Source of the DNA: Yuukianura sp. NJ FZ-2021
Taxonomy: Eukaryota
Assembly: GCA_046563655.1 (NCBI GenBank)
Contig: CM102285.1
Span: forward strand, 4,030,001-4,094,000
Direction of reading: 5' to 3'
DNA length: 64,000 nucleotides
Below are positions 7,278 to 63,590 of this stretch, one piece after another. Below the pieces are notes generated by a model that was not told where the DNA came from, ran no database searches, and saw only the letters and a program-made list of their open reading frames with translations. How positions within the stretch are numbered: the first letter of the stretch is position 1; each line of letters opens with the position of its first letter. Made by a program: the position numbers and the translations under genes.

Positions 7278-7419
7278 GCTGAACAGTAACTACAAAAATG
7301 TAACTAACTGGATGTAGCTTACAGTTTTTTGAAGAGATCTCTTCAGCGAAGTGGCGGAATCCACGAGTACTCAATTGGACGATGCTGGTGACCTCCAAGT
7401 TGACCTCTCGCTCCTTGGT

Positions 7420-41900: not shown

Positions 41901-43186
41901 AATACAGCAAGATCCATTGGATCCGTCTAAATGGCAAGTCATTAACCCGTCAAATCTGGTTGTAACAACGTCACTTCCGAATGGCAGTACTGTGGCAACT
42001 ATTAAAACTGAACTGGAAAAGCCAAAGACACGTCTCAGAAGAGTCGCGTGTACTTGCCCCAACTGTACAGACATCGATGCGAGGTATTGTGTACTTGTAT
42101 ACAATACTCTAATTCTAATCCAACGTTTACGTGTACGTGTACGTTTTACGTGTAGATGAATGACATTTTACCTGTAATGTTTTAGGAACAATGGTGAAAA
42201 GAAGAAGCAACACATTTGCCATATAGTTGGATGCGGAAAAATTTATGGGAAAACGTCACATCTAAGAGCGCATTTGCGCTGGCACAACGGCGAAAAGTAA
42301 GTTGTTAGTAATGCTCAAATGATAATTTGAATTTGATCTAAGTACGAGTGTTAGCACTACTAAAGATTACTACACACAAAACGGTTGGTCATTTGTTTCT
42401 CAGGCCTTTCGTATGTCAATGGCTATTCTGTGGTAAACGTTTCACCCGTTCTGACGAGCTTCAGAGGCACCGTCGAACTCGTGAGTGCCTGAATGCTTTC
42501 CGTTTATTTGAAGTCCAATGCATCTTGTACCATAAGAGTCATTCATGATAGAATTATATTTTAGATACCGGTGAAAAGCGGTTCCAGTGTCATGAGTGCT
42601 TGAAGAAATTTATGAGGTCCGATCACCTATCGAAACATATCAAGACTCACACTAAGCACAGGATCGTTGGTGTTGACGTAGTGCCCGATTTAGCCGACGC
42701 AGACAGCAAACCAGGGACTATAAAATCTGTAAGTTCTACTCTTTTTGAATTAATTTTATACATGCAATTTTACAGTCACTTACTCCAGATCTTTGAAGTC
42801 AAATTAAACAAAACAAAAAGTGCACGAGAGGCATTTAGATTTTTTAGTTGCCAAATTAAAGCTAAACGTGCCAGAAGAAAGTTAGTTTGTAATTCGTGTG
42901 TGGGAATACAAAAATGAAACTTTTTTTTGCATTCTTACTCCTTATTCTAAAATGGGAATTCAAATAGAACAATGTATAAAATCGACTAAATTGTCAAATC
43001 AGAATCCTAATTGTACTTTTGAAATGTCTTCAGGAAATTTTGGGATCAGATTCAATGGAAGACGAGGAAGGACTAGACCAAGATCAGTTGGAAGATGACG
43101 AAGACGGTGAGAGTGAAATGATGATCACAATCAACACTGATGGAGATCAACCGGAACTGATTATAACGGAAGGGAATGCAGACTAA
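38943..43186 (+). CDS. Sp-family (Sp1-4-like) transcription factor
   Basis: Q-rich exons, buttonhead box [10 protein letters not shown], three C2H2 fingers ([52 protein letters not shown]), acidic tail; start exon MDKE (38943-38953) inferred from splice phase. Confidence 0.92.
40119..40515. mobile_element. hAT-type MITE in an Sp intron
   Basis: TIR CAGTGTTGGTGGA...TCCACCAACACTG; 8-bp TSD GTTTTTAG. Confidence 0.9.
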
Positions 43187-44308
43187 ATAGGAATTCTTTT
43201 CATTATTTTAATCAGCTAAGGAAGTACAAAAAATTTATTGACAAGAAAACTGAAGCCAGATATTTAAAGTTTCGCATATTCTGTATATCAATTTACAGAA
43301 AAAATACATATGTTTTTAAAATATGATTTCAACTGTCCAATATGACGTTTTGCCAATACTACTAATTTCTCATTACTAATTCACATTAATAGGTCACACA
43401 AGGTCAAACGGATCAATTTTAGCATACTCTGATTCTGTAAATTACTTATTATTAGTCTATTCGTGTTAAGCAGATACGAATCTCTCGAATTTGAAGTTTT
43501 GGCAGTTCTGATTCAGCGTCTGCGCACCTCTGTTGGGTTCTCGAATCTATTGAAACATCAACGCGTTTCTGTGTGCTACTTGGTTTTGTCGTCGTTTTTC
43601 TAGTGCTAACAGCATGCTTCTTTTTCATGTGCCATTTCATTGTGCTTGACTTTGTAAAATGCATTTCGTAAAACCGACACTCGAATTCTCTGCTAACATT
43701 GTGTAATTGCTTCTGATTTTCCAGATTCTGCTGAGAAAGAAGCTTTTTGAGGCAAATGTCGCATTCAAATGTCTTGGACTTTATTCCATGCGTTTTCAAA
43801 TGAACTCTAAGGTCCCCGGCAGATACAGTTGCATGACTACAGTGTGGACACTGATGAGTCGTCTCACCGACATGTAGCCTTATGTGATCATTCCTATTCT
43901 GTGGCATTCAAAAATTTAAATTTGCATTTTAATTTAATTGACTAGCACAAAAAATTTTTTTGCTTTGTTTCAGCATAACTTAAGGAGAGACAACAGGTCA
44001 ATAAAAATAACGCCAAATAACGTTTTGTAGACATGGCAACGACTGAGAATTGAGAAATCCCACATTACGTAATCATGCAAAACCCGGACGGGTGGATTCT
44101 TAACGATTGAAATTTTGCACAACTCATGCTAACTTGCGAATCACTGCGTTGGATTTCAAATTTGACGCTCCTTCGCGGGTTTTTCTAAATGGGTATGGCG
44201 AAGTGGATGAGCCACTTCTGAGACTCAATTCTCAAGTCGCCCCAACTCTTAGTGACGTAATGCGAAATAATAAATTGTAAACAAGAAATTCGTGAACTCT
44301 GACCCAAT

Positions 44309-44625
44309 CTTCTGGTGCACTTCCTGACTGATTGGTAAGACCCTCAGAAAACTACGACCACACTTTTCGCATTAGCACACGCTAATAAACAGCACATCTG
44401 ACGATTATTTGACGAAAACAGGACCCTTCGCCCAGAAAACTTAGGTTTTCTGGGTTTTCCCAGGATTTCAGAAACATCTTCCAGAAAACCTAAGTTTTCT
44501 GGGCGAAGGGTCCTGTTTTCGTCAAATAATCGTCAGATGTGCTGTTTATTAGCGTGTGCTAATGCGAAAAGTGTGGTCGTAGTTTTCTGAGGGTCTTACC
44601 AATCAGTCAGGAAGTGCACCAGAAG
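44309..44625. repeat. Long inverted repeat: 145-bp arms, 27-bp spacer
   Basis: 44309-44453 is the reverse complement of 44481-44625, with no mismatch seen by eye. Confidence 0.93.
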
Positions 44626-44832
44626 TCTTATGGGAAATTGGGTAATAAGCGAATCTGTCCATCGTAATCTTAAGTTTCAAAATATTTTAGTAGCGTCGTG
44701 GGTACAAAACTTCTAGAAACTAAGCTTACATGTTCGATATGAGTTTGGTAGTCGCAGAATCCGCAATGAAACTTCTTTTTCAAATGGCTGTTTTTGTGAC
44801 GCTTGAGACCAGATTTAGTTCCGTACGACTTC

Positions 44833-45538
44833 GGTTCCATGCCATTGCTCCGAATGAATTGGTCCGAAGCGCAATGCTACGAATGAATTGCTACGAAACC
44901 ATTTGCTCCGAAAGGCACTTTGCTCCGAATGGTACTTTGCTCCGAAACAGCATTGCCCCGAAACAAGTTGCTCCGAATGGTACACTGCTCCGAAAGATTA
45001 TTTTCTCCGAAAAATTATTTTCTCCGAAAAATTATTTTCTCCGAAAGATTATTTTCTCCGAAAAATTATTCTTAGGTTACTGTTAATTGGGTTTCTACTT
45101 GGGTTTGGTTAGGGTTTGCTCACTTCACTAATCCTCGAGACGTTATCAGTATTGAGAACTTTAAAAAACCTAACACCGCGCCTTCGGCGCGGGACCATAA
45201 AGGCGAATTCACTCATTTCAGTATTTCATTGAAATACTTTCCTCCTCCTGGCTTCACTGAAATACTTCCATTGAAATACTTCACTTTTCAACTCTGGACG
45301 GATAACTGCAATTCACCCAATAATCTTTTGGAGAAAATAATCTTTCGGAGAAAATAATTTTCGGAGAAAATAACCTTTCGGAGTAAATAATCTTTCGGAG
45401 CAATTGGTTTCGAGGCATTGCTGTTTCGGAGCAAAGTATCATTCGGAGCAAAATGCCTTTCGGAGCAAATGGATTCGTAGCAATTCATTCGTTGCATTGC
45501 GCTTCGGAGCAATTCATTCGGAGCAATGGCGTGCTACC
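44833..45538. mobile_element. Foldback/MULE-like non-autonomous element with long modular TIRs
   Basis: Inverted arms of about 200-240 bp built from ~15-bp TTGCTCCGAA/TTCTCCGAA subrepeats; GG...CC ends; 8-bp TSD ACGACTTC (44825-44832, 45539-45546); central hairpin CGCGCCTTCGGCGCG. Confidence 0.88.
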
Positions 45539-46787
45539 ACGACTTCTTACTGGAAAGCTCTTTCCTTCGTGTGCACAACCGTATGCCTCTCAAGATCTTT
45601 ACAACTTCCAGCGGGAAATTGACAAAACGTGCACATAAAATCGCTCACTCCAGTATGTATTCTGAGGTGGTCCTTGAGATCCCAGTCGCTTTTAAATTTC
45701 ATTGGACAATACTTGCAGCAGAGCAGCTCCTGCGTGCTGCGTGTGGTCGCGACGATGTGCCACAAGTGCGGAACTGGTTTGATAGGCATTCGGGCATTCC
45801 GAGCAGACGTAAGGTTTTTCCCCAGTATGTGTCCGAATATGCTTCGTTAGGTCACATTGCTCGTTAAAAGTTTTGGAACACAATTTGCATTTCAGTGGTA
45901 TGGATTCCGAGTGAGTGCGCATGTGCCTGGGGAGATGCCTAGCCCTCAGAACTCGGCTGCACTGTGGGCATGCGCGAGGATCAGCTTTTGTGTAAGCGAG
46001 GATATGGCTGCTAAGGGAACTGTGCTGCTTAAATTTCTTTGGACAACTTCTGCTAGAATACGGTAGCTCGGAACTGCTCATTATAGGTATTTAAATTTCT
46101 TGCAGTCGCAGTCGTAGAGTGTTTTGTCTGTACAATGTATGTGTAGTAGTGATCACTGTGCGATCAGATTTTCAGAATCACTTTTAGAATTTGTAAAAGA
46201 AAAAAACGGCTATTCATAAAGTCAGACACACCAATCCGTAACCGTTCGAGTCACAAAAACAAAAAAGCAAACTGAAGATGAGCTGTGGAAGAAGCGTGTT
46301 ATTATGCCTTTTTCAAAACAAAATTCTGTTTCTTCCCTTACATTTTCCTATGAGTGTTGAAAAGGTCAAATTTCTCGAACCATAGATATTATAATACTAA
46401 TGAGCACTGGTAATTCCGCGAATGCATACCAGCCGATTGGTTTGTTTATAGTTACCGATTGGCTTGCTTGTTCTGAAAATTTTAAAACTCAACAAACCAA
46501 AAAATTTCAAAATTTTCGAATTTGAATTTCTTTCCTTGTTATCTAACAATTTGTATTTCTCAACTTCAAGTGCTTTGGCTTTCGAATTTCACATGAACGC
46601 ACCAATGAAACCCACAAAAACGTGACCCCACCATTCGTGACAACATTTTGGTCTACGCCTGAATCAGCAGCAGCTCCTGGGAGAAAAATTTCGAGAGTCG
46701 CAATGCCGGAAAAAGTTAAAAAAAACATTCTTAATTGGATGTGTGTCTCCTTTAAAAGGGAAGGAAAAATAATACGCACAAATTTTA

Positions 46788-49243
<2,456 letters not shown>

Positions 49244-51293
49244 TCTTAAAAACTCAAAAAAAAAAGAGCAAAATTTGGGAATGACCTGACAGGTGAAGTA
49301 CAAACTCACGATTGAATTTCAACCTAAAGAACCGGGAGAATGAATTCTAAATAGAGTTTCCCTTTATTCCCCCGACCTTGAAAAACTCAAAAACCAAAAA
49401 CATTTCAAAAGTTCAAAATTGATCCTTCACTTAATTACTTTTGTCATTTTGAAAAAGTTTTAAAGAAATGTTGGAACATAATAACCTGAAAGATAGATGT
49501 GTGTTTTAAGTTATCCCGAAGGAAGTCTTCAACAATGTCCACGACCTTGCTAGGGTTAGAAACATGAATATAGTGACCTCCGTCAACCTCAACTCTCCTC
49601 TATAGAGTAGATTAACTTCAACATTTTCAAAGCGAATTCTAAAGATTATACTTTCTGACCTGCAGCTGCAATATGACCCCATGGAACAAGGATTTTGAAT
49701 TCCATTTGTAAAAAACTTGGGCCCGGAGTTCGAACACTTTTGACTGAAAAGTTTCAAATGTTGTCACCAATGCATTGGTGGCAACATTTTGGTATAAGCC
49801 CAAAGCGGCAGCAGCTTCGGGGAAAAATTTTTGAGAGGATCTGACATGTCGGAGAAAGTGAAAGGCATTTCTTTCAACCTCAAACGCTTCTGTTTTTGAA
49901 TTTCACGTGAACTCTCTAATGAAACTCACAAAACCGTGATCCCACCAGTGGTGGCAACATTTTGGTGTACGCTCCAGGCGCCAGGAGCTCGTAGTAGAAA
50001 ATTTCGAGATCTCGACTTTCACTTTTTCAAATTTTGGTGCATTTCCACTTCAAGCGCTTTTTGAACTTTACGAAAATGAATGTAAGGAACCCAGGCATGC
50101 GTTGCATGTGTTGAAGCCAATGGCATCAAACATTTTTGGGTGCTTTGATCTTAACAAAATGGTCAGACAAAGTCTAAATTGTGAGTACAGTATGGTTGAA
50201 CGTGTCTGGGGCGAAGCCGTAGCTAGAATACGAAGCATTCTTGTTTCTACTAAAAGTTATCATCCAGATCCAATGAATGGCTTCTTCATCGAATCTTATC
50301 AACAAGAGATTTTATAAATTACAGTTCTGCTATGAGAACCAAAATATTCAGGGAGAAGTTACCTAAGAACTAATTTACTTTAATACATATTTTAGCCTAG
50401 TATTAGGCATAATTAGGTTAGCAATTAATATTTAACATAACAACCAACATAATACCATCCCGAATTGCACTAGGCCACTTCAGTGGGGGCAGTTCAAATA
50501 TTACAATAATATTGCGTGAAAATGCAAAAACGAGTGTAAACTAAATCAAATTGAATTCTAAAAAAGCTACCACCTTTATCATACATATTTTTCAAAGTCT
50601 AATAGTATGCCAGAGCTTTGTGGTTTTAAATTCTCGATTCTAGGTATCTGGTATGGTATATCTCTAGGTACTACCTGTGTGCTTGAGATACTTGATACTT
50701 GATTTATGTTACTTTAGCATACTTTAACTATTTCTCTAAAGGTCAAGGTTACTCCAGGCAAGGTGTTTTTGTTTATGGTAAGGTATTTACTTGGCTCATG
50801 GGTGAAATAATGTAACTATAGACATTTATTAAGAACTAGGCCATGCCAAAGAACTAGTCAGATAAAAAGGTTGTAATAAATATGACAAAAACATTTTTAG
50901 TTTTTAAGCGAAGTAATGTAATGTATAACGACCAGAAATTATTTACATCGCAGGAAGTGACTTCCTTCATGGTGCCGTCCCACTTTTCAGAAAGCTTTCC
51001 ACCCATTTTATAAAAACATGGTTTTGGCATATGAAAAAAAAATAAAAGAAAGTCCTGTTTTCAATTCAAAACTTTCCTAAGATGAAATCAACATTCTATT
51101 AAAATTTCAACAAATTTGACTATTACCTTTTAGAAAAAGTTTGCTTTTGTTTGCAAAAGTGACAATTCTAGTACGCGTCATTTAAGTTTTTGGAGAGCCG
51201 TGTTAGGTATCTCTACGGGTCTAAAAATTTCAGAAACTTTGAGTCCGTCAAAAATTGGTATAAAATTTGCGTCTTGTATCTTATTTGGTCTCA

Positions 51294-54200
51294 ATGGGCT
51301 TTTTGAAGAAATTGCCATGGTTGATGATCGTATTTGGAGGTGGCAGCTTGCTTGTGCTTATACCCATGATGCTTGGTGGGTTTAACGCCATTTTGCACTT
51401 TGGTGTTGCATATGTAAGTCAACTATACTTTTCATGTAAAGAAACAGTGATCTTTTAAGTTCTGAACATTAGTTGTGATTTAAACAAAGTGATCAAAACT
51501 ATTAACCAACGCAGTACGGCTCTCCCTTGGGTTCAAAAACTAATATAAAATGTTACAATTTTTATGTTTTTAGGCAACTCGCATTGTGGAAGGCACGCCA
51601 ACTTGGCAAATGTGGCAGAAAATTCCAATTCCGGTAAATGACAATTATTTCTCTTAGATGTTAACTTCCATACACTTCTACGATGGTTTAAACTGTTAAT
51701 TACTTTGTAGGTGTACCTACGGGTTCGTGTTTTTAATATAACGAATCCAAAAGACATCATCACCGGAGCTAAACCCAGACTTCAAGAAGTTGGCCCTTAT
51801 GTATACAGGTATTTACCGCTACCTTGACCATTTAGTACCCCTATAAAAATTGTCCTAAAATATGATTAAACGAAATAATCGATCCTGAACATTAAAATTT
51901 CAATGCTGTTTTCAATCAATATAAGAAATACGAATAATCGATATCTTTTCCGCACCAGACATATGCCCAACATCAAAAAAATATTTATTTTTTCCAGGGA
52001 ATCGTTGGAAAAGGTTGACATTCAGGTCAACTCAGAAGATGATATCATACAGTACAGACAAGTCAGAGTTTACCATTTCCAGCCCGCCATGTCAAAGGGC
52101 AAAGAAAGCGACAAGGTCACATTCCTCAACATCGCCTTTGTGGTAATGTTTCATTCGGTTTCCATGCTACTTTTACATTTCCATCCTACTTCTCAAAAAA
52201 AAAAACTTTTCCAAACCCTAACCAACCCAACGCTGTTGAAGTTGGAACCAATAAATTTTTCAACATTAGTTTTCGTATTTTCGTACATGTCGATAAACCG
52301 CATTCCTGTTTTCCACGATTCAATAAAAAACTGAATTTAAGCGTTTTTGAATTAATTATAGGGTGTGGCTAAAATTGCGCATGATTTCACCGATGCGGAC
52401 TACCTTCATCAGACTCTGGATGAAATGTTAACAGCCAAAGGTGAGAAGTTGACACGGACACACACAGTCAGAGAACTACTGTTTGACGGCTTCACTGTCC
52501 AGTCATTCCTAGACTTGGCCAAGGATCCCCTCATTGAATCAGCAGGTAACAATGCCAATTAAATGAGAATGACAGGAAGTTGGGTTATGCTGTGCAAGGT
52601 TCCTTGACAACCGAATTGTATTCCCTACAACCGGTTGGGTTTTTCAAAAATTTTACTTCAAATAATTTTCCCCCCAATTTTTTCCTTAATTCCAATTTCT
52701 TTACATGAGAATGATTACCATAGGAAAAAGTTTATCAAAATTTTTAACAAAATAAAAAACATCGAGTTATTGTACAACCTGGTGTAGAAAAAAACGTTCT
52801 TTTTCAGTGTTGGTGGATATCCACTTTTTTAGCATTTCATCCAGGATATATCCACTGAATAAGTGGATAAATCCGGATGAAATCCAGTTTCCGATGGACG
52901 AAATTGAGTTTCGTCCGGAAGACACCAAAAAACCGGATATATCCACCACTTTCGAGGAAAGTGGAAGAAATATTTTAACCATCCACCAACACTGTTCTTT
53001 TTTGTTTCCGAACCTTGAGGCTATAGTTAGGTTTATTTTAAATTTGTAGATTTAGAAATAATATAATTTGCAATTTGGCATTTTTAGGGGACATCAATAT
53101 TCCATCCCAACTGCTTGATGGAAAGATGGGAATTCTGGAAGGCGTGAGTTTTCAAACATTTGTAATTCCTGCAAGTACTCAAAAGCTGTACTAAAATATG
53201 CTGTTTTTAGAGAAACGGAAGTGATGACGGGACATATCAAGTGCGAAGCGGAAAACATGACTCATACGACTTCGGACGTGTCGTTTCATGGAACGGATTC
53301 AGCATGCTAACAAAATGGAGGGGAGACCCATGCAATTCTGTGAACGGAACAGACGGAATCCTGTATCAACCGTTCCTAGAACGTGACACGGTCCTACAAG
53401 CATTCGTTCCGGACGTATGTCGCTCGTTGACATTTAAAGTAGAAAAGGAAGTGAGGACCAGTGGACTTGACTGCTATCGTTACCGCATGGACGAAAACAT
53501 GTTTGCCAGCGTGGATAAGAACCCGGATAACTGGTGCTTCTGTCATAGTGAAAACTTGACACATTGTTCAATTAATGGAATTACGAGTGTTGCTGCATGT
53601 TTCGAAGGTAATATTTAGTTTTGTGACACTTTATTCGACAATTTAATTTCATGCGTTCGACGTTAAAATTTTTGGTTGACATTGTAGGAGCTCCACTATT
53701 CTTGTCTCTGCCGCATTTCTTGGGCGGTGACCCAATCCTTCGCGAAAATGTGATTGGGCTGAATCCGAATTTTGAAGCCCACTGTGGCTATTTGGATCTT
53801 CATCCGGTGAGCCACATCACAACAGAAGTTCATTTGATCACAAATTTATTCATACCTTTTTGGCCAACATTACTAACAACGTTACTCCTACTTTAAAACT
53901 TGATCTTACGTTTGCAGTTGACTGGAGCTTCAATTCAAGTACGACAGCGGATGCAGTTCAACATTGAGCTCACACCGTATTTGTCTATGCCAACTTTCGC
54001 AGACACTTCGCCTGCAATAGTTCCTATATTGTGGGTTGAGGAAGTAAGTTCAAAACCTAATTTTATGTTAGTTAGGTGTTAGTTAGTTGTCGCATCGGTA
54101 TCACACCAAAATATTGGCAAATAATACTTTTGAATTAATAGGGCGGTGACCTCGATAGTCTTACTCGGACTTTGCTAAAGGTTCTGGACATTGGACTTAA

Positions 54201-54420
54201 AATTTGGGCCATTGGGAAATGGTTCCAACTTGTATTTCTGACGCTCGTTCTTGGTGGTGGCATTGCTCTGTTATACCAACGATGGAAAGCTACCAAAGTT
54301 GAATTGCTGGGGCCACGCCCTGAGGACGACGAGGACGAAGAAGATGATGAGGAATACACTTCAGAGAAAGCCATCAACGAGAAGGAAGAACCTCCGCCGG
54401 AATACGTTCCGTACAATTAG
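51294..54420 (+). CDS. CD36 / scavenger receptor class B family protein
   Basis: N- and C-terminal TMs, [50 protein letters not shown]; acidic cytoplasmic tail. Confidence 0.93.
52805..52994. mobile_element. hAT-type MITE in a CD36 intron (same TIR family as 40119)
   Basis: TIR CAGTGTTGGTGGAT; 8-bp TSD TTCTTTTT. Confidence 0.9.
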
Positions 54421-54971
54421 AGCGGTGTCGCACGTCATATATACATAGGTGATATAATGTAAGGTATACGGTAGGCATCGTGCAATCCTTTAGTTTCGTG
54501 GGTGTCTGTGTAGGCTCCTGTAGCATTACGAACGATTCAACCAACTGAAGCCTCTTATTCTCACCCACGCGCTATGTCGTCTTTACTTAAATAATGTGAA
54601 GACAAGAAGTAACCACTTTCGCTTATTAGTTAGTACATAGTACATGTTGAGTAGTATTAACCAGATCTCTAATAAATAGTAGAACAACAATTTCGGGTGC
54701 ATTCTAATGAAATTGGGTTTGCCCAATCTAAGAATCCGAAGATCTTACCTTATTGACAGAAAAGCTGAAAAAATATAAAACTTGTTAATTTTAATTTTCG
54801 TTTGTAGTCACACAGTTAGCTGTGAAGCTTTTCGCTTAAATCCTGCAAACTAACCTAACTATTGCACAAGCGCATCAATTGGAATATTTGCCAGTTAACT
54901 ACAAACATCAATTACATAAAATGCATGTACTTCTGAAAATGTAACGTAATAATACGCATTTTCGTGGAATA

Positions 54972-55201
54972 CCGTGTTGTTCAGCGAAAAGTAGACACCT
55001 ACTGAAACACAAACTCAAACGTTTGTTTATTTTCAAAATTGTGGGGGGAGATGGGTACCAAATTCCAGAAAATACCAAAATGAATACAAATTCAAACTTC
55101 TACACTCTCTTGTTGGTCAAAATCTCCCCCAGAAATCATAAATTTTCCAAAAAAAATGGCATGGGGATTTTGGGGTGTCTACTTTTCGCTGAACAACACT
55201 A
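54972..55201. mobile_element. Tc1/mariner-like MITE
   Basis: TIR GTGTTGTTCAGCGAAAAGTAGACACC; flanked by TA. Confidence 0.85.
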
Positions 55202-55274
55202 TACACTTTACAAGTTTTAATAGCTTTATGCAGCGATGAAGTTAACATTTATTTCAATTATATTGATTATGCGT

Positions 55275-56257
55275 TTACTCATCAATTCGAGTCAAGTAAA
55301 TTCGAAGTTCTCGGGTTTCCCCGCATAACTGTTGACCATTATCAGTCGCAGTTGGGTGTTGCGTTTTCACATGATGGTTCCTCTTATATACATTCGTAAA
55401 ACGCTTTTGGGAGAATTGACATTGTTCCATGTGCCCACTATGGAGTCGTTTGTAGTACACAAAAGAACAATTAGAAGTCAATTGTTTCGAACAAATATCG
55501 CAGTCAAACTTCTTTCTCCCGACTTCGTGTTGTTTAAAATGATGTTGTAGCCCGGTGCGTGTTACAGTTGCATGGGGGCATTGCGGACATTGAAACGTCT
55601 TCTCCCTAATATGTCGCCTAATGTGATCATCCATTTCCTAAGAATCAGTAAATTAGTAATTAAATAATTATTTCTAATTTAAAAATTAAAGAATAAACTT
55701 ACATGCCTGATGTGAATTTGGTAGTCACAGAATGCACACTGGAAATTATTTGCACTTTTCAGATGCCTCTTTGTGTGCACTGCAAGCCTTGATTTGGTTC
55801 CAAAACTCTTTGGGCATTTGTTGCAATGGAAAGCTGCCTCCTTCGTATGTGTCACCAAATGTTGGTTAAGTGCCAAAGCACTTGAAGCAGCAAATTTACA
55901 AAAACTGCACATAAAGTTACTTACGCCTGTATGGGTGATCAAGTGACACCTAAGATTTTGTTTTGTTTTGAATTTCTTTGGGCAATTGCTGCATTGAAAC
56001 AATTCTTGAGTGTGTTCACGATTGTGAATTCGTAGCTGCTCATTCCGTGCGTAGGCCTTACCGCACACAGAGCAGAGGAAAGGCTTTTCACCGCTGTGGA
56101 TGCGCATATGGCGCGTTAAATGACTCTTTTGGTGAAACTTTTTGGAGCACGTTATACATTCAAATTCTCCAATCTTCGAATGATATTTTAAATGTCTTGG
56201 ATGGTATTCTCCTTTGACGCTTTTCCCGCATTCGGCGACGTTCGTGTTTGTTTCCAT
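55275..56257 (-). CDS. C2H2 zinc-finger array protein, possibly decaying
   Basis: Two finger-coding exons (intron at about 55638-55702); some fingers lack ligands (YYKRLH, CQFSQ); ends ELRIYLTRIDE; 5' end uncertain. Confidence 0.75.
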
Positions 56258-56862
56258 GTGACCATCAAATTGTTGGCAATTAGAATTCCAGCTTCTATAA
56301 AAAAAATTTAGTTGATTTTTTTTCTAAATTCAACGTGTGGTTTTAAAATAAGAAAATATACGTTATATAAATATTATATAAAATAGACACGTTAAGAGTA
56401 GACCTCCGTTTGCTTGTAGTATTAGAACTGCTTATGCTTGCAAAAATTCCACAAGCACTGTTGGCAGATTTCAAATTTGTGTTTATAATGTTTCGAATGT
56501 GAAAACTTTTATTGTTGTATAGAAGTTGGCTTTTCAGCACAGTAAAAGTATACTATGTACTGATAATTGTTTTCCCACATTTCTGTTCGAATTTTATTGA
56601 AAAGGACCTTTCGTTGTACAAAAATAGCTACCGTCCCTTATATTTTTTTAGACAAAGACAATGAGCCAGTTTTGAAATATTTTGTGTCAAGGTGTTTGAA
56701 AATTTTCAGTTGAAAGTATATTTATTGAAGAAAAATGGTACATATGTTTAAGTAACGATAGTTTCCGGCAAAAGTTGTAAACATCCATTTGGCAGTACCT
56801 CAACGTGGTAGCTAAACTAATCACACCTTATGAAAAATCAATTCGATTCGATTCGATTCAAT

Positions 56863-56908
56863 TACTCATCAATTCGAGTTAAAAAAATTCGAAGTTCCCG
56901 GGCTTCTT
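56863..56908 (-). pseudogene. Relic C-terminus of a fourth zinc-finger paralog
   Basis: Minus strand reads EARELRIFLTRIDE*, closely matching 55275-55315 at the DNA level. Confidence 0.75.
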
Positions 56909-57408
56909 ACATTTCGTGACGTCAAGGACTAAGGTTCCGAATGTTGTTTGACCTCAAATGACCTCCTACAATAACAGAGGTCTAGATCATCAATATCCTA
57001 CCCTCTATAATTCATCTGACGATTATTTCTAATTCGTACCTTTTCGAGGAAAAAAATTCAAAAGTATTTTAATTAAACTGTTTTTCGTAAGGCCTAACGG
57101 CGGATTTAGACTGTTTTGAACAAGGTTCACTAGCAGGTAGTGTTGATTAAACATTCATTGAATTTGGTTGTTTTGTGCACCGGAACTGAGCGTTTAATTA
57201 GGACAAGGAAAGAATAGATTGGGTTCATTAGCGTGACAAAATAAAAAAAATGTTTCGCATTTTTTCTAATTTTGACTAGTCACTTCTATATAAAACGAGA
57301 TGAGTTGACCGCCATCTTGAAAACAGTTAAAAAGAAATTGAAAAGTCGACAGAGAAAATTAAAATCTACTTCTTTTTAGAGATCAAAAACTACATCTAGG
57401 CGTCCAAA

Positions 57409-58182
57409 ATGAGGAACAGGACTGTTGTTCTTGTTTTTGTTGTTGCAACTATTGTAAGTTATTTTTTCCATAAATCACAAAGTTTTAAACAATTTTGAAG
57501 TATTTTACATTTCATTTTCTTTTTACATTTTTTTGAAAGGCAATGATACGAGCCCCTGCCCCAGAAATGCCTTGTAAAGAATTTGTGGCAATGTTAACAA
57601 AAAAGCAACTGGGAGGAATCTCCGCTTGTTCCAAATCAATGAAATTCAAAAATCCAAAGGAAAAAGCATCTAAAATGAACTGTATAGTTAACGTTTTAAA
57701 CGACAAAAATCCTTTGGTCACGTGAATTTATGTTTATCCTGTTTGTGCAGGTATTCTTAAATGCGTACTAACGAAAGAGGGTATGCTAGATGCTGATGGG
57801 CAATTTGTGTCTGATGAAAAGCTTGATGGATTCATAGATGAAATTGTGCCGATTAATTTAATGGACAAAGTTCCTCCCAAATTCAAACATTGCAAAGAAA
57901 CCGCTGGTAAGCTATCTATGATATGCAATTTCTAAACCAACGACGAGTATAACAGTTGGATAATTAGAAAATTTAATTTTGTTTCAATTTCATACCTATT
58001 ATTTAGGCAAAAATTTGGACACAACCGGGGATGAATTTTGCAAAAGTTTTGACCCCTTGATAAAGTGCATGCTCGATGTCATTGGAACGGTACCTTAACA
58101 AACACAAAAAATTACTTTGTTTTCTTAGTATCTTCAAGATTCTTACATGAATTTATGTGTTTTGCAGCTCTGCAAAGCCTAA
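57409..58182 (+). CDS. Odorant-binding-protein-like secreted protein 1, 5 exons
   Basis: Signal peptide; C-X3-C (CILKC) and C-X8-C (CKSFDPLIKC); 8 Cys in the mature protein. Confidence 0.82.
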
Positions 58183-58832
58183 TCCCGTGCAAAACGCCTT
58201 CTTGTATCTGAAATGCGTATAACTCGGTCCTACTTCGTAACATATTAATCAACAATGCCAGCCACTTAATTTCAATATTTTTGAATAATCCATAATTGTA
58301 AAGTAAACAGTTAAGTGATTAGCCGAATTAGGTATCTCAAGTAAACGATATTTATTGACCAACTGAATGTGTTTTACTTTCACAAAATTTGAAGTTGAAC
58401 ATCAATTGCCAAAGTTGAGGAATTTTGAACAAAATTACACGTTCAATTCCTGTTTTCTACATATAATGAAATCTTTAATGAAATTATAATGTAAAAATTT
58501 ATAATAATAAAACCTAAAAAATTGCATCTTGTGCTTAGTATGTCCATATAATGTGAAAAACGTTTTTCATCATGTGAAAATCTTACTAGTAAGCCCTTCC
58601 GTACGTCTTAAATTGATGTTAAACAATGTTATCGGATAATGACCGAGGTCAACTTGGACGGCACTGAAAAATTTTATACAAGAAGTATTACGCAAGTTAT
58701 TGATGTATCTTATATTATTTTTATGTTGTTATATTATTGTGGGATGTTATATTGTTTAGGCTTTAAAGTTGTCTAAACAGTATGATGTGGGTCTAATTGA
58801 AGTACTCGATGAAATACTAACATATAAGTATA

Positions 58833-59694
58833 CCGTAAATGCTCTAATGCAAGCGCGTATTCTAATAGAAGCGCATACTCTAATACAAGCGCGGTTTCAG
58901 AGGCGGTAAACTGCGATATAAGCGCGGTAACCAACTTGAGTTTAAAACAGAACCTAGAGCAAACAGACATCATCTGTTGGAATTAATATCTTTACTAATT
59001 TGACTCAAATCAAACTATAGCGTTTACATTTTGCCGTTTCCTTTTGAAAATGGTGGAACCAAAAATACGACCGTTCGACATCAGTCGTAATGTTAGTTTA
59101 GTGCGCTCTACTAATACCGCCGCTGGTACCGCGGCTCACTTCGGACACAAGTCTTTAGTTGTCTGAAGCAAAAAGATAAACTTGGTAACAACTTAACTAA
59201 CTTTAAGGTTATTTGGAATGAATTTTATTTTATTGTGAAATGGAATTTCAAATTACCAAATCAAAAGTCGTTCCAACTCTTCTGTACAAATCTACATACT
59301 GAGGGAACGTAGATGAAAAGATTAACTTCATCTTAAAAGCAGTGTTGCTGGATATCCTCTTTGACGTTTCGTCCAGTGGATATCCACTGGATAATTAAAT
59401 TAATTATATCTTATCCGATTTCATCCGGAAGAAATGAATAGAATTGGATAGTAATTTCCACCTAATTTGATTTAGGTGGAAGAAATATTTTATCCATACA
59501 ACCACACTGCTTCAAAAGCTTTGAAAAAAGCAACAGTGACATAAACTTAATTATTAATTAACCCAAAGTATTAATTAAATTTATCCTCACTTAAACTTGT
59601 TAATTATTCCGGTAATAAATAGTATTCCAATAGAAGCGCGCCCGAAAGGCCGAGAATTCTTATAAGCGGCGCGCTTATATTAGAGCATTTACGG
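58833..59694. mobile_element. pogo/Tigger-like MITE containing a nested hAT MITE
   Basis: TIR CCGTAAATGCTCTAAT..AAGCGCG; TA TSD. Confidence 0.85.
59340..59509. mobile_element. Older hAT-type MITE of the CAGTGTTG family, nested
   Basis: CAGTGTTGCTGGATATCC...CCACACTG; degenerate TSD CTTAAAAG / CTTCAAAAG. Confidence 0.7.
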
Positions 59695-60323
59695 TACTAC
59701 AACTGCTACTACTTCGCCTTATTAGTAGAATAATATGGTCAAGGTTAAGTTAGCCTAGGTCGAAAGTATAAAATCAACGGTACCTAACGTGCGCCAAAGA
59801 CTCAAAAAAATTGGGTAAGAACTTTCAGCACTTTTCAACAACCTTGACCTATGACCTGAAACATTCAATTGCAAGAAGCCAATGTACAGCTTCACAGAAA
59901 TGTGATACATTTCTGTGTATCACAGAAGGTGATACAAGCATTGCTGTTTGAAATCTGTGTTTATTGTCAATTTCTAAAGTCCTCTGCATTTTACTTCATA
60001 AATCCAAAAGTTTTTCTCCCATTATAATGAAGCAAACCACAGCGTGAGTCAATTGTTTAGCGCTACGCAATGAAGTATGTAGAAAATTTTATGCAATCAT
60101 CTGAAAAGTAATGTGAAGAATAATGGGAAGGCTGTAATTGGAGGTAAATAATAATTATTTAAATCAATTAAAACATTTGGAGCCGGAAATCATGATGGGC
60201 CCAACGCTTTCCTTTGTGCCCAAACATCGCTTAAGCAATTAAAGCTTAACTGCGCTAAGTTTATAAATAACCCTGATGTGTCTAATATCATGCCAGTTGC
60301 ACATTCCTTTTTTCGTTTTCAAA

Positions 60324-61124
60324 ATGAAGGTCTTTCTACTTTGCACAGTTTTAGCGACTTTTTGTACGGTAAGGCCACCTTATTCCAATGTTTCCACAAA
60401 ACTTGCAAATTTTAAATTCACAACATTTTTTTCTGTGTTGATGCAGTTTGTCTGGGCTGAGAAATCATGCAAAGAGTTTATCACTGATACAATTGATAAG
60501 ACGATGCAGTCATTTTTCTCATGTAAAAAGGAAATGACATTTAAGTCTGAAGAGGACAAGCTATCTAAAATGACTGTGAGGACAATACTAATATTTTTTA
60601 GAACATGGTTTGAAAAGCAATCAGCCAACTATTTTTAAGTTCTCTGTATAAGTTTTCAAAATTATGAAGAAAAATTATTGGTATTTTGCTTTGATGATGT
60701 AGTGTATCTTGGTATGTGCGATGAAGAAACAGAAATTTTTGTCTCCAGAAGGATATGTAGATGAAACGTCGTTACTAGCATATGTTGAAAAAGAGATTCC
60801 GTCGTCCGTACAAAACAGGGCCATAGAATTGATGCTCAAATGCCAAGAATTCGGAGGTAACTGGCTTCAATTTTTTTTTAAAACGAGTTTATTGTTTATA
60901 GTTCTCTATCTAAACGCCAATAATATTTCCAATTGGAAAAATTAAATTTCAGCTGCCCTTGACGCGGATGAAGAGAGGTGTTTGTCCTATGGTGGATTGC
61001 TCAAATGTGCACTTAGTGTCGTGTTTAAGGTATTTACAAGTTGTCATCTATTATCCAAATTGCATTGCTCAAACAGTGTTTCCAAAAAAAATATTTTTTT
61101 CTGGGAATTTAGGTGTGTAACTAA
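60324..61124 (+). CDS. Odorant-binding-protein-like secreted protein 2, 5 exons
   Basis: Signal peptide; CILVC and CLSYGGLLKC; same exon layout and Cys pattern as 57409-58182. Confidence 0.82.
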
Positions 61125-61786
61125 CCGAAGAGGGCGTGGATTTTGGATTCATACTGTGTCTTACTGTTGCTATAAGATTTATACAAGGCAGTATATTAAA
61201 GAAGTTCAGTCGACAATTGTCCACTGAACAAAATATTTTAGCGCTTTTTAAATGTTCCTTCCATTACTTCTGATAGCTAAACCTAACGTGTGGTGCCTAA
61301 AATTCCGTCGTTAGCAGTTCCGTGAATCTAATCGGGATAAATGCGCCAAAAGTTTTCGGGGTACTATTTGCAACTTTCTGATGGAATTAATCCACACAAT
61401 CAAATTTCGTATGGATGTAAAAAGTAGTTGGTTATTGCGAACATATTTGTCTGTCTTAATAACTCCACTTTTAAGGGTTTTTTTTCGAAAAATTTTCATT
61501 ACTGAGTTCACTTAGTTTTAATCGCGGTTGGTATGGTAAACGGAATTGAAAAATTTGGAGAGATTGGCAAGTACAAAATAGAAAAGGAGTTAAAAGGTAG
61601 AAAAAACAAAAAGGTTAGAAAAAAAGTAAGAAAAAATTGTTTGACTTAAGATTTTTCGATAACAGGACTTATTGTCGAACCTGTTAAGGGAAAAGTATTT
61701 CGTTGCTATAGCAACCTTGGGCTGGGCTAAATAAACTAGCAAGAATCAAAAGAGGTCCCAATTTTGAGCTGCTTTTACTTCAGTTT

Positions 61787-63211
61787 TCAGTCATCAATTC
61801 GTTTAAGGCAAATACGAAGTTCTTGAGTTGGCAGTCTGGACAATGTACATTCTCCTGATTTTTGGTGTTGTAGCAATTTGGACCGTGAGGTGAAAACTGC
61901 GTCTTTGCAGATACACTTGCTGCATTTGATTTTCAAGTTTCCATTTTTCATCGGCAGTACTTTTGACGTGCGATTAGTATGCATTTGTTTCAGATGTCGC
62001 CTATAGGTACTTGGATGCGTAAATTTTGCTTGACAAAACGGACATTGATGTTCCTTGTATCCGCTGTGAGTTCGTTTGTGATAGACGAGAGAATTCTTAT
62101 GACGAAGTTTCCTAAAGCAAATGTCGCACTCGAACGTCCGTCTTTTTATTCCATGTGTTTCCAAATGACTTTTGAGCCCTCCAACTGTAGTAGCTGAATA
62201 TGGGCAATGTGGACATTGCAGAATCGTCTCACCGACGTGTCGCCTTATGTGTGAATCCAATCTCTACACAAAATGTAAAAACTGTGTTTAAACATCAACA
62301 GAAACTTTTTCGCTTAAAAAATTCACTTCAGTTCCTAATTTTAAATTCTGGAACTAAATGTTCTTATTCTTTACTAGCGACTAAAACTTGTAGAACTAAA
62401 TTCTAACCTGCTCAATGAGACTCTTATAGTCGCAGTAAGGGCAGTGAAATTTTTTTTTCAAATGGCGTCTGCTGTGGAGTGTGAGGCCGCCTTTAGTAGT
62501 AAACGTTTTATCACACACTTCGCACTTAAACGCTCTCTCCTTTGTATGAATAGTCATATGAATCTGGAGTGATTTAGAACTGTGTGCAGCATGTGGACAT
62601 AGGGTACACATGAACCTGCTTCTGCCAGTGTGAAGTCTGACGTGTCCCTTAAGGTTATGCTTGGTGTTGAATACTTTTGGACAGTGATTACAACGAAACA
62701 TTTCACGTGTGTGCTTTTCGCGTCGGTGGGCATCAAGGTATGCCGATTGCCTGAAACTTTCTGGGCATTCAGCGCAGACAAACGGTTTCTCGCCTGTGTG
62801 AATTCTCATATGCGTTGTTAGACTGCACTTGTAGCTAAACAACTTGTAGCAAATGGTACACTCAAACTCTAGTGGTAACGGGCCCGTGTGTCTTCGTACG
62901 TGCAGAGGAAGATATTTCGCCCTGAAGAGTTTCCCACATTCTGGACAAGGCTTCATGTCCGCCTTTGAATGTGTCAATAAGTGACTGGTGACTCCATTCT
63001 TCTGTCCAAACCTTTTGGGACATTGAGGGCATTGGTATGGCAATTCAGTGCTGTGTACTACCCGGATGTGACTTGTCAAAATAGTCCTCAGTTTAAACTT
63101 TTTTGGGCATAATGTACACGTAAATGGCCTCTCTGTTGAATGTACCGCCAAGTGAGACTTCAAATACTTTTTACTTTTTAACTCTTTTCCGCAATCCTGG
63201 AATGTTGCCAT
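61787..63211 (-). CDS. C2H2 zinc-finger array protein, about 12 complete fingers, apparently intact
   Basis: Exons at about 62409-63211 and 61787-62263 join in frame through a split finger (CPYC...EQ|RLDSHIRRH); ends ELRICLKRIDD. Confidence 0.9.
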
Positions 63212-63590
63212 TTTTCATACCTGTGAAAGTAATATAGTTGAAAAAGTGCAAACACGGAATAAAATATTTATAATATTTATAATACAAATACAATGCAAGT
63301 ACTAAATTTGCTAAATCGCAATTAGTGGTTGATAATTCAATAGCTTGCTTCAAAACAAATTCGCTTAATAATAATGAAGAATTTTTTACAAACCCAAATT
63401 AGTAAATAGTTTTAGTTTGTTTGGTTTCTCAATCTCTTTTTCACAACAATGCACTCAATTCAAAAAACAAATCGCAACAGCACAAAGTATTAAAGTAATT
63501 TTCTTTCTTTTTATTCATATTATATTCGTGCGAAGCATCAACTAAATATAGTAGGCAGATTGGTTCCCTCCCAATGTTTCAAAATTGTTT

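What the first reader, a model, noticed from the sequence alone, without database searches (positions are those of the whole stretch)
43452..63211. Birth-and-death C2H2 zinc-finger family with a conserved C-terminal E[LI]RIxLxRID motif: possible KRAB-ZFP-like silencing system
Seen: four minus-strand paralogs in graded decay (intact 61787, partly degenerate 55275, TE-disrupted 43452, 45-bp relic 56863). The three longer copies share an intron position. Fingers and the preceding linker diverge, but all four end in ELRICLKRIDD, ELRIYLTRIDE, EIRICLTRID or ELRIFLTRIDE. Known: HP1 chromoshadow domains bind PxVxL-type motifs, including LxVxL variants, and fast-turnover ZF arrays with an effector module (KRAB, ZAD) often repress TEs. 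Inference: a lineage-specific family pairing a variable DNA reader with a constant short co-repressor hook.
Basis: partly seen in the sequence, partly recalled or inferred. Interest (0 to 1): 0.72.

Follow-up and report, generated by a model that had tools for sequence, protein, structure and literature searches.

The report
Zinc-finger gene family with conserved tail peptide
A small, old cluster of zinc-finger transcription-factor genes in an arthropod-like genome keeps one ten-residue peptide unchanged at the very end of each protein, which probably docks an unknown partner protein; nothing yet shows that the partner is the silencing protein HP1.

Summary
Exactly four minus-strand copies of E[LI]RIxLxRID followed by a stop codon lie in the window, against none in 100 shuffles.

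- **Copy A (61787-63211):** an intact 426-aa protein with about 12 fingers. One RNA contig shows a spliced 5' leader.
- **Copy B (55275-56257):** an intact 305-aa reading frame whose last two fingers have lost zinc ligands.
- **Copy C (43452-46090):** a pseudogene with a 7-nt duplication, an 11-nt deletion with a stop, and a 706-bp inverted-repeat transposon.
- **Fourth copy:** a 69-nt fragment of a B-like 3' end.

A, B and C share a phase-0 intron inside the same finger.

The paralogs are old, with synonymous sites saturated. The tail's non-synonymous divergence is 0.09-0.17, against 0.46-0.50 for the rest of the exon, and its synonymous divergence is just as high. Selection therefore acts on the peptide itself.

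No KRAB, ZAD or other effector domain is present. The tail is predicted to be disordered. I found no relatives of the tail in public proteins or metagenomes.

HP1 binding is untested. The core fits hydrophobic-x-[VI]-x-hydrophobic, but all four copies fail the published Drosophila HP1a consensus at an invariant Glu. Nothing supports fast turnover or transposon silencing. The own genome could not be searched.

The parts
61787..63211 (-). Gene A coding region. It encodes an intact 426-aa protein with 11 canonical C2H2 fingers, near-canonical ones, and the C-terminal tail. Coding exons are 62408-63211 and 61787-62263 (stop 61787-61789).
   Evidence: Spliced translation has no stop. Fingers are listed. 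Pfam finds zinc-finger families only.
62264..62407 (-). Gene A intron, 144 nt, GT-AG, phase 0, inside a finger.
   Evidence: Sequence read. The finger C-x2-C-x12-H is restored only after splicing.
63221..63393 (-). Gene A 5'-UTR intron, 173 nt, GT-AG. The leader exon ends at 63394 and reaches at least 63424.
   Evidence: One RNA contig of run X7 (266 nt, depth 2, 7 differences in 184 nt) lies on 63038-63221. It then continues with letters identical to window 63395-63424.
61790..61822 (-). Tail peptide of A: ELRICLKRIDD.
55275..56257 (-). Gene B coding region. It has an intact 305-aa reading frame with 7 canonical fingers and two terminal fingers that lost a zinc ligand. Exons are 55703-56257 and 55275-55637; the 65-nt GT-AG intron is 55638-55702.
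55278..55310 (-). Tail peptide of B: ELRIYLTRIDE.
56838..56906 (-). Fragment of a B-like 3' end, encoding ..EARELRIFLTRIDE*. In-frame stops lie just upstream, and no fingers are nearby.
   Evidence: blastn gives 69 nt at 81% identity to 55254-55319, the only match of 56400-57500 elsewhere in the window. Translation.
43452..46090 (-). Copy C, a pseudogene collinear with A. Its last exon (43452-43898) is still open and ends in EIRICLTRID*.
   Evidence: tblastn collinearity, alignments, lesions read.
44833..45538 (.). Non-autonomous transposon inserted in a finger of copy C. It has 188-nt inverted ends (88% complementary) and is flanked by the 8-bp direct duplication GAAGTCGT.
   Evidence: It is high-copy in the DNA runs: mean word depth 27190 in X5 against about 4-9 in most single-copy bins.
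44309..44625 (.). Palindromic repeat element (two 145-nt arms, 100% complementary) inside the intron of copy C (43899-44729).
   Evidence: Raised depth.
45738..45744 (-). Approximate site of a 7-nt tandem duplication (CACGCAG) that shifts the frame of copy C.
   Evidence: Read. Two overlapping frames appear.
45547..45549 (-). In-frame stop in copy C where A and B have the first Cys of a finger. It sits beside an 11-nt deletion that removed the CxxC.

Best explanation
This is a small, ancient tandem family of multi-finger C2H2 transcription-factor genes. Two copies are apparently intact, one is a pseudogene, and one is a 3' fragment. The proteins have no N-terminal effector domain.

Their only conserved non-finger element is a 10-11-residue short linear motif, E-[LI]-R-I-x-L-x-R-I-D-(D/E), at the extreme C-terminus of a disordered tail.

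The most likely mechanism has two parts. The finger array reads DNA and differs between paralogs. The constant tail docks a nuclear partner protein, a co-regulator, most plausibly by laying its alternating hydrophobic residues (L, I, L) and two arginines into a groove of the partner.

What is shown: the family, its anatomy, and peptide-level purifying selection on the tail. What is inferred: that the tail is a docking site. What is unknown: the partner's identity.
For: - There are four copies of the motif plus a stop, and none in shuffles.
- Seven of the 10 motif columns are invariant among A, B and C, against 2 invariant columns in the linker just before the motif.
- Six of the 7 invariant residues use different synonymous codons among the copies.
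- By Nei-Gojobori, motif dN is 0.17, 0.14 and 0.09, against 0.46, 0.50 and 0.49 for the rest of exon 2. Motif pS is 0.34-0.96, as saturated as the rest at 0.66-0.69. This excludes recent gene conversion.
- B and C lost zinc ligands in the last two fingers yet kept the tail.
- Pfam finds only zinc-finger families in the 8 pieces scanned.
- An in-frame TGA lies two codons before A's ATG, and an RNA contig splices a non-coding leader onto it. There is therefore no hidden N-terminal domain.
- AlphaFold2 leaves residues 140-158 as coil with block-mean pLDDT 41-52, as expected for a linear motif.
- Precedents of finger proteins with short effector peptides: KLF11 (PMC3339955, abstract and passages), Oddjob (PMC7655104, passages), plant EAR-motif C2H2 proteins (PMC9956375, abstract in the search listing only).
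Against: - No partner is known.
- The sample is three sequences and a fragment from one locus, and one of the three is now a pseudogene.
- No orthologue or further family member was found, so conservation across species is unshown.
- The structure model is of low confidence overall (mean pLDDT 55).
- A degron, an export signal or a self-association strand would leave the same sequence signature.
- Expression evidence is one low-depth environmental RNA contig covering only the 5' end of A.
Confidence: 0.5

Rival explanations
1. One reading: the tail is a PxVxL-type ligand of the HP1 chromoshadow dimer, so the proteins tether HP1 directly to their DNA sites and silence them. This would be a KAP1-independent analogue of KRAB zinc-finger proteins.
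For: - The core [LI]-R-I-x-L is hydrophobic-x-[VI]-x-hydrophobic, with Arg at -1 and +4.
- The published Drosophila HP1a 'access code' allows Ile at position 0, L/I at -2, L at +2 and [KRLN] at +4, and favours basic residues around the core (PMC12526061, passages read).
- A and C pass 13 of 14 positions.
- The motif lies in a region predicted to be disordered.
- KLF11 and Oddjob show that finger proteins can carry such hooks (PMC3339955, PMC7655104).
Against: - 0 of 4 copies pass the full 14-position consensus. All fail at -3, where Glu is invariant here and excluded there.
- B and the fragment also fail at -6 (Glu) and +1 (Tyr, Phe).
- The consensus is itself loose: 21 of 120 unrelated finger proteins match it somewhere.
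- The classical motif (Pro at -2, Val at 0) is not met.
- The invariant Ile at +5 and Asp at +6 are not explained by that consensus.
- No binding test was possible.
Confidence: 0.13
2. The tail is a degradation signal, for example an APC/C destruction-box-like R-x-x-L-x-x-I element or a C-terminal degron, that limits the proteins to a cell-cycle or developmental window.
For: - 4 of 4 copies match .R..L..[LIVM]., with R, L and I invariant and an acidic residue after them. The regex is recalled from the ELM resource, not from a call.
- The strictly terminal position is kept in all copies.
Against: - The regex is unspecific: 22 of 120 unrelated finger proteins match it.
- It leaves the invariant Glu, the [LI] before the Arg, the Ile after it and the second Arg unexplained.
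- No stability data exist.
Confidence: 0.12
3. The tail is a localisation or self-association element, such as a nuclear export signal, or a strand or helix that pairs two molecules.
For: The pattern of L, I, L, I is leucine-rich and amphipathic. Many arthropod finger proteins dimerise through added domains (general knowledge).
Against: The spacing does not fit the common export-signal classes (my own comparison from memory). Nothing in the sequence points to pairing.
Confidence: 0.1
4. The similarity is not functional. It is left over from recent duplication or gene conversion of the 3' ends, or reflects a DNA or RNA element rather than a peptide.
For: The 69-nt fragment is simply a young copy of B's end, with similar identity in coding and non-coding parts, so by itself it says nothing about selection.
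Against: Among A, B and C the synonymous sites inside the motif are as saturated as elsewhere (pS 0.34-0.96). Six of 7 invariant residues use different codons, while amino-acid change is 3-5 times lower than in the rest of the exon. Flanking DNA is unalignable.
Confidence: 0.04

Closest known systems
Human KLF11, with a C-terminal PxVx(L/M) HP1-binding site at residues 487-491 of 495 (PMC3339955)
   Same: A C2H2 finger DNA-binding domain is followed, at the extreme C-terminus, by a short alternating-hydrophobic peptide that acts as the effector hook. DNA binding is independent of the hook.
   Different: KLF11 has three conserved fingers, N-terminal repression domains, and a canonical Pro/Val motif with proven HP1 binding. 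Here there are 9-12 divergent fingers and no other domain. The core is L-R-I-x-L with an invariant Glu at -3, and binding is untested.
Drosophila ZAD zinc-finger protein Oddjob and the HP1a 'access code' motifs (PMC7655104, PMC12526061)
   Same: A lineage-restricted arthropod finger protein carries a conserved short motif in a disordered segment. That motif, with hydrophobic-x-[VI]-x-hydrophobic and basic neighbours, governs heterochromatin association.
   Different: Oddjob has an N-terminal ZAD domain and its motif lies in the linker. The present proteins lack ZAD, carry the motif at the C-terminus, and fail the published consensus at -3 in 4 of 4 copies.
KRAB, ZAD and FiNZ zinc-finger subfamilies (PMC10547256, abstract; PMC4592553, search listing only)
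   Same: Tandemly duplicated finger genes combine diverging DNA-contact residues with one constant non-finger module.
   Different: Those modules are folded N-terminal domains of 40-90 residues, in families of tens to hundreds of young genes. Here the module is a 10-residue C-terminal peptide, with 2 intact genes seen and paralogs whose synonymous sites are saturated.
Plant C2H2 repressors with a C-terminal EAR motif, LxLxL (PMC9956375, abstract in the search listing only)
   Same: C2H2 fingers are joined to a very short C-terminal alternating-Leu repression peptide.
   Different: The partner, TOPLESS, is a plant protein. Here the centre is Ile, the motif is longer, and it is flanked by conserved Arg, Asp and Glu.

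Membership tests
C2H2 zinc-finger proteins (Pfam PF00096, PF13465, PF13894) | Tandem C-x2-4-C-x12-H-x3-5-H units | tested here: met
   All 8 pieces scanned hit zinc-finger families, for example zf-H2C2_2 at E 2.7e-48 for A exon 1. The regex finds 11 canonical fingers in A and 7 in B.
KRAB zinc-finger proteins | N-terminal KRAB domain (PF01352) | tested here: not met
   No KRAB hit in 8 pieces at E <= 0.01. In A an in-frame TGA lies two codons before the ATG, and the upstream exon is a spliced non-coding leader.
ZAD zinc-finger proteins | N-terminal ZAD domain (PF07776) | tested here: not met
   No PF07776 hit. The N-terminus of A starts directly in a finger-like unit.
HP1 chromoshadow ligands (PxVxL / HP1a access code) | Core of hydrophobic-x-[V/I]-x-hydrophobic in a disordered region | tested here: met
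   L/I at -2, I at 0 and L at +2 in 4 of 4 copies. The tail is coil with pLDDT 41-52 (low-confidence model).
HP1 chromoshadow ligands (PxVxL / HP1a access code) | Full 14-position consensus of PMC12526061, positions -7 to +6 | tested here: not met
   0 of 4 copies match. All fail at -3 (Glu). B and the fragment also fail at -6 and +1. A and C pass 13 of 14.
HP1 chromoshadow ligands (PxVxL / HP1a access code) | Physical binding to the chromoshadow dimer, lost on mutating position 0 | not testable with these tools
   No HP1 sequence from the window, a search result or an allowed reference was at hand. The own genome is not held.
APC/C destruction box | R-x-x-L-x-x-[LIVM] (regex recalled from ELM) | tested here: inconclusive
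   4 of 4 copies match, but so do 22 of 120 unrelated finger proteins. Degradation is not testable here.
EAR repression motif | LxLxL or DLNxxP | tested here: not met
   The centre is Ile in 4 of 4 copies and the first position is Ile in C. The known partner is plant-specific (PMC9956375, abstract listing).
Transposon-silencing finger-gene families (KRAB- or FiNZ-like) | A large, young, rapidly turning-over family with transposon targets | tested here: inconclusive
   Only 2 intact genes, 1 pseudogene and 1 fragment are seen in 64 kb. Paralogs have pS 0.63-0.72, so they are old. Family size and targets cannot be tested without the genome.

The most novel reading that the evidence does not exclude
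The ten-residue tail is a self-sufficient silencing hook. It would bind the HP1 chromoshadow dimer or another heterochromatin co-repressor directly, and would mark a larger, springtail-lineage-specific zinc-finger subfamily. That would be a minimal, peptide-sized counterpart of the KRAB, ZAD and FiNZ modules, working without an adaptor such as KAP1.
Probability: 0.1. Interest if true: 0.6.

Novelty: new variant of a known kind. Interest (0 to 1): 0.35.

Why it matters
Finger-gene families are usually classified by a folded N-terminal module such as KRAB, ZAD, SCAN or FiNZ. Here the constant module is a ten-residue C-terminal peptide that is held more tightly than some of the fingers themselves.

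If the peptide proves to be an effector hook, it gives a compact handle, usable as a peptide bait or a tethering tag, for finding the co-regulator used by a non-insect hexapod lineage. It would also show that finger families can be defined by linear motifs that domain scans miss.

On present evidence this is a modest finding. It rests on one locus, two intact genes, old paralogs and an unknown partner. The general architecture already has a precedent in KLF11.

Tried and rejected
**Own genome**
- Not held, so no genome-wide count was possible.

**Public proteins**
- A exon 2, residues 60-158, against longer proteins: 2 word-sharing candidates, none at E <= 0.01.
- A exon 1 against proteins of 149-476 aa: 383 generic finger proteins at E <= 1e-10, with identity at most 44% among the 120 listed. 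0 of those 120 carry the motif anywhere.
- Tail profile of 4 sequences against 1.84 billion representatives: 1 protein at E <= 0.001 (9.2e-4). It is an 845-aa reverse-transcriptase-like protein with an internal repeat '..LPIRETRICELLI..', with no fingers and not C-terminal. I rejected it as chance.
- Same profile, word-indexed, against proteins of 112-2000 aa: 524 candidates, none at E <= 10.
- A ten-residue motif is near the detection limit of all these searches, so absence is weak evidence.

**Metagenome contigs**
- The degenerate DNA pattern matched 116 loci, nearly all of high G+C and bacterial in look. 0 of 116 have a finger in the upstream frame.
- 6 have a stop within 13 codons. Of the 5 loci I read in all three frames (3 of those 6, plus L076 and L102), including the two low-G+C ones L087 and L104, none shows fingers.

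**ESM Atlas**
- With the last 34 residues, the best score is 0.83, below the 0.9 lead threshold, and the neighbours are generic finger clusters.

**Structure and complex prediction**
- Two-copy co-fold of the 63-residue tail: no verdict (score 0.01). I do not use it either way.
- AlphaFold2 of exon 2 gives mean pLDDT 55. I use it only for 'tail not predicted to fold'.

**Other look-ups**
- Earlier-findings look-ups by sequence and place: nothing on this family.
- Literature searches found no description of this tail. One search (springtail, C2H2, zinc finger, gene family expansion) listed no springtail paper among the 10 shown. One search gave KLF11 as a precedent.

**Sequencing runs**
- RNA run X7 and metagenome X6 cover only small parts. 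Nothing was laid on B or on the tails in RNA.
- I draw no conclusion from uncovered parts.

Full report
**What is in the sequence**

A six-frame regex search of the whole 64-kb window finds the peptide [LIVM]R[IVL].L.R[ILV]D four times. All four are on the minus strand, and each runs into a stop codon at once or after one more acidic residue:
- ELRICLKRIDD* at the end of the reading frame 61787-62263.
- ELRIYLTRIDE* at the end of 55275-55637.
- EIRICLTRID* at the end of 43452-43907.
- ELRIFLTRIDE* at about 56865-56897, where in-frame stops lie just upstream.

A back-translated 32-nt pattern hits the same four places. It hit none in each of 100 dinucleotide-preserving shuffles.

**Gene anatomy: copy A**

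Copy A is intact. Joining 62408-63211 to 61787-62263 across a 144-nt GT-AG intron gives a 426-aa protein without stops. It has 11 canonical C2H2 fingers plus near-canonical ones.

The intron sits in phase 0, ten residues after the second Cys of a finger. Only splicing restores the C-x2-C-x12-H spacing.

One contig from an environmental RNA library (run X7; 266 nt, depth 2, 7 differences in 184 nt) lies on 63038-63221. It then continues with letters that are identical to window 63395-63424. On the minus strand this is a 173-nt GT-AG intron (63393 down to 63221) in the 5' UTR.

In the finger frame a TGA lies two codons before the ATG at 63211. The protein therefore starts directly in finger-like sequence and has no hidden N-terminal exon. 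This is weak but direct evidence that A, or a 96%-identical relative, is transcribed and spliced.

**Gene anatomy: copy B**

Copy B also has an intact frame: ATG 56257, a 65-nt GT-AG intron at the same finger position, stop 55275, 305 aa. It lacks the first fingers of A. In its last two finger units a zinc ligand is replaced (His to Tyr, Cys to Ser).

**Gene anatomy: copy C**

Copy C is collinear with A but dead. It carries these lesions:
- A 7-nt tandem duplication that shifts the frame near 45738-45744.
- An 11-nt deletion that removed the CxxC of one finger and leaves a stop at 45547-45549.
- A 706-bp element with 188-nt inverted ends (44833-45538), flanked by the 8-bp duplication GAAGTCGT, inside the same finger.

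An 8-bp duplication is typical of hAT-type elements; this is recalled knowledge, not a tool result. The element is highly repeated in the DNA runs (depth 27190 against single digits).

C's intron (43899-44729) holds a perfect palindromic repeat. Its last exon is still open.

**Gene anatomy: the fragment**

The fourth copy is only a fragment. Positions 56838-56906 are 81% identical to B's last 13 codons plus about 24 nt of 3' flank. Nothing else in 56400-57500 matches anything in the window. It is a young leftover and says nothing about selection.

**Is the tail more conserved than its surroundings, and at which level?**

Exon 2 of B and C is 48% and 42% identical to A at the protein level. The linker before the motif is barely alignable, with 2 invariant columns. 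The motif has 7 invariant columns out of 10.

At the DNA level, 6 of the 7 invariant residues use different synonymous codons among A, B and C.

| Pair | Rest of exon 2, pS | Rest of exon 2, dN | Motif, pS | Motif, dN |
|---|---|---|---|---|
| A-B | 0.66 | 0.46 | 0.34 | 0.17 |
| A-C | 0.67 | 0.50 | 0.71 | 0.14 |
| B-C | 0.69 | 0.49 | 0.96 | 0.09 |

These are Nei-Gojobori values for the 10 motif codons against the rest of exon 2. The motif counts are small, but the direction is the same in all three pairs.

Two conclusions follow:
- The paralogs are old. Synonymous sites are saturated (dS above 1.3), so this cluster does not show fast turnover.
- The tail is held by purifying selection on the peptide, not by recent gene conversion or a nucleotide-level element.

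B and C let two terminal fingers decay but kept the tail.

**What else is in the proteins**

Pfam finds only zinc-finger families in all 8 pieces scanned. There is no KRAB, ZAD, BTB or SCAN domain.

DNA-contact positions (-1, 2, 3, 6) differ at every corresponding finger between A, B and C.

An AlphaFold2 model of A's exon 2 is poor overall (mean pLDDT 55). It folds the fingers and an extra finger-like unit at residues 101-136, and leaves residues 140-158 as coil with block-mean pLDDT 41-52. The tail is thus the only constant non-finger element, and it behaves like a short linear motif in a disordered end.

**Search for relatives**

The own genome is not held, so the key genome-wide count could not be made.
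- Word-indexed and profile searches of public proteins found no protein with this tail.
- A degenerate DNA pattern scan of metagenome contigs gave 116 loci, none with fingers upstream.
- The Atlas gave only sub-threshold generic finger clusters.

A ten-residue motif is near the detection limit of these tools, and this organism's proteins are evidently not in the collections: the best hit to A was 44% identical. Absence is therefore weak evidence. Notes by other agents call this genome springtail-like; I did not check that.

**How it most likely works**

I commit to a docking motif. Each paralog's finger array reads its own DNA sites. The constant C-terminal peptide presents L/I, I and L on one side, with two invariant arginines and flanking acidic residues, to a groove of a nuclear partner, probably a co-regulator.

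The family, its anatomy and selection on the peptide are shown. That the tail is a docking site is inferred. The partner is unknown.

**The HP1 idea**

The HP1 idea is reasonable but unproven. The expanded Drosophila HP1a motif allows Ile at the centre and L/I at -2, and it favours basic residues around the core, with [KRLN] at +4 (PMC12526061, passages). The invariant L-R-I-x-L-x-R fits that description.

Against it:
- None of the four copies passes the published 14-position consensus. The invariant Glu at -3 is excluded there.
- B and the fragment also fail at -6 and +1.
- The consensus matches 21 of 120 unrelated finger proteins somewhere.

**Other readings**

An APC/C destruction-box-like reading (R-x-x-L-x-x-I; regex recalled) fits all four copies. 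It is equally unspecific, matching 22 of 120 unrelated finger proteins.

A two-copy co-fold of the tail gave no verdict, and I do not count it.

**Comparison with what is known**

The architecture has clear precedents:
- Human KLF11 has a functional HP1-binding pentapeptide among its last nine residues, right after its fingers (PMC3339955, abstract and passages).
- Drosophila Oddjob uses a conserved PxVxL in its linker (PMC7655104, passages).
- Plant C2H2 repressors end in an EAR motif (PMC9956375, listing abstract only).

The subfamily-defining modules KRAB, ZAD and FiNZ are folded N-terminal domains of large, young families (PMC10547256, abstract).

The present family differs in three ways. 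Its module is a ten-residue C-terminal peptide of a sequence that meets none of the catalogued definitions I could test. It has no other domain. Its paralogs are few and old. I file it as a new variant of a known kind.

**Verdict**

The reading 'variable reader plus constant hook' is supported. 'HP1 hook' and 'KRAB-like transposon silencing' are untested, and parts of them are contradicted: the consensus failure at -3, the old paralogs, and the small number of copies seen.

Interest is moderate to low. The finding would rise sharply only if a genome-wide scan showed many finger genes with this tail, or if a partner were found.

Noticed in passing
window 2157-7289 (-): One uninterrupted 1711-aa reading frame of a Pao/BEL-type LTR retrotransposon (Peptidase_A17, DUF1759, DUF5641, integrase zinc-binding domain). 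It looks like a young, possibly active copy.
   Followed up: no
window 39655-43186 (+): A Q-rich gene with a CTCPNC box and three KLF/Sp-type fingers, split by introns, lies head-to-tail next to copy C. It looks like an Sp1-4-type factor. This is recognised by eye; Pfam gave no hit at 1e-4 on the two pieces I scanned.
   Followed up: partly
window 63209-63218 and 56257-56267 (-): In both A and B an out-of-frame ATG lies 7-8 nt before the main ATG. In A it opens a 15-codon overlapping frame, MKNGNIPGLRKRVKK*. This may be a conserved translational brake.
   Followed up: no
window 44309-44625: A perfect palindrome of two 145-nt arms with a 27-nt loop sits in the intron of copy C. It belongs to a repeated family, since depth is raised in both DNA runs.
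   Followed up: partly
window 43453 and 43476: Contigs of DNA runs X1 and X5 differ from the window inside copy C's tail. One change turns the stop TAA into TTA, adding a Leu before the next TAA. The other is synonymous in the first Arg codon.
   Followed up: no
window 47077-49318 (-), 52362-54417 (+), 57726-57935 (+), 22773-27203 (-): The neighbouring genes are a glycoside hydrolase family 1 gene, a CD36-family gene, a small Sol_i_2/odorant-binding-like exon and an ABC transporter. The finger cluster is therefore interleaved with ordinary single-copy genes.
   Followed up: no
window 52072-53405 and 58742-60075: These stretches have 10-100 times the single-copy depth in the DNA runs, with many joints and loose ends. 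They are further repeat insertions, one of them within the CD36-family gene region.
   Followed up: no
window 61868-61987 (-), residues 101-136 of A exon 2: Between the last canonical finger and the tail, A has an extra C..C...H.....C unit. The model folds it as strand-strand-helix (pLDDT 62-75). B has deleted most of it and C keeps only remnants.
   Followed up: partly
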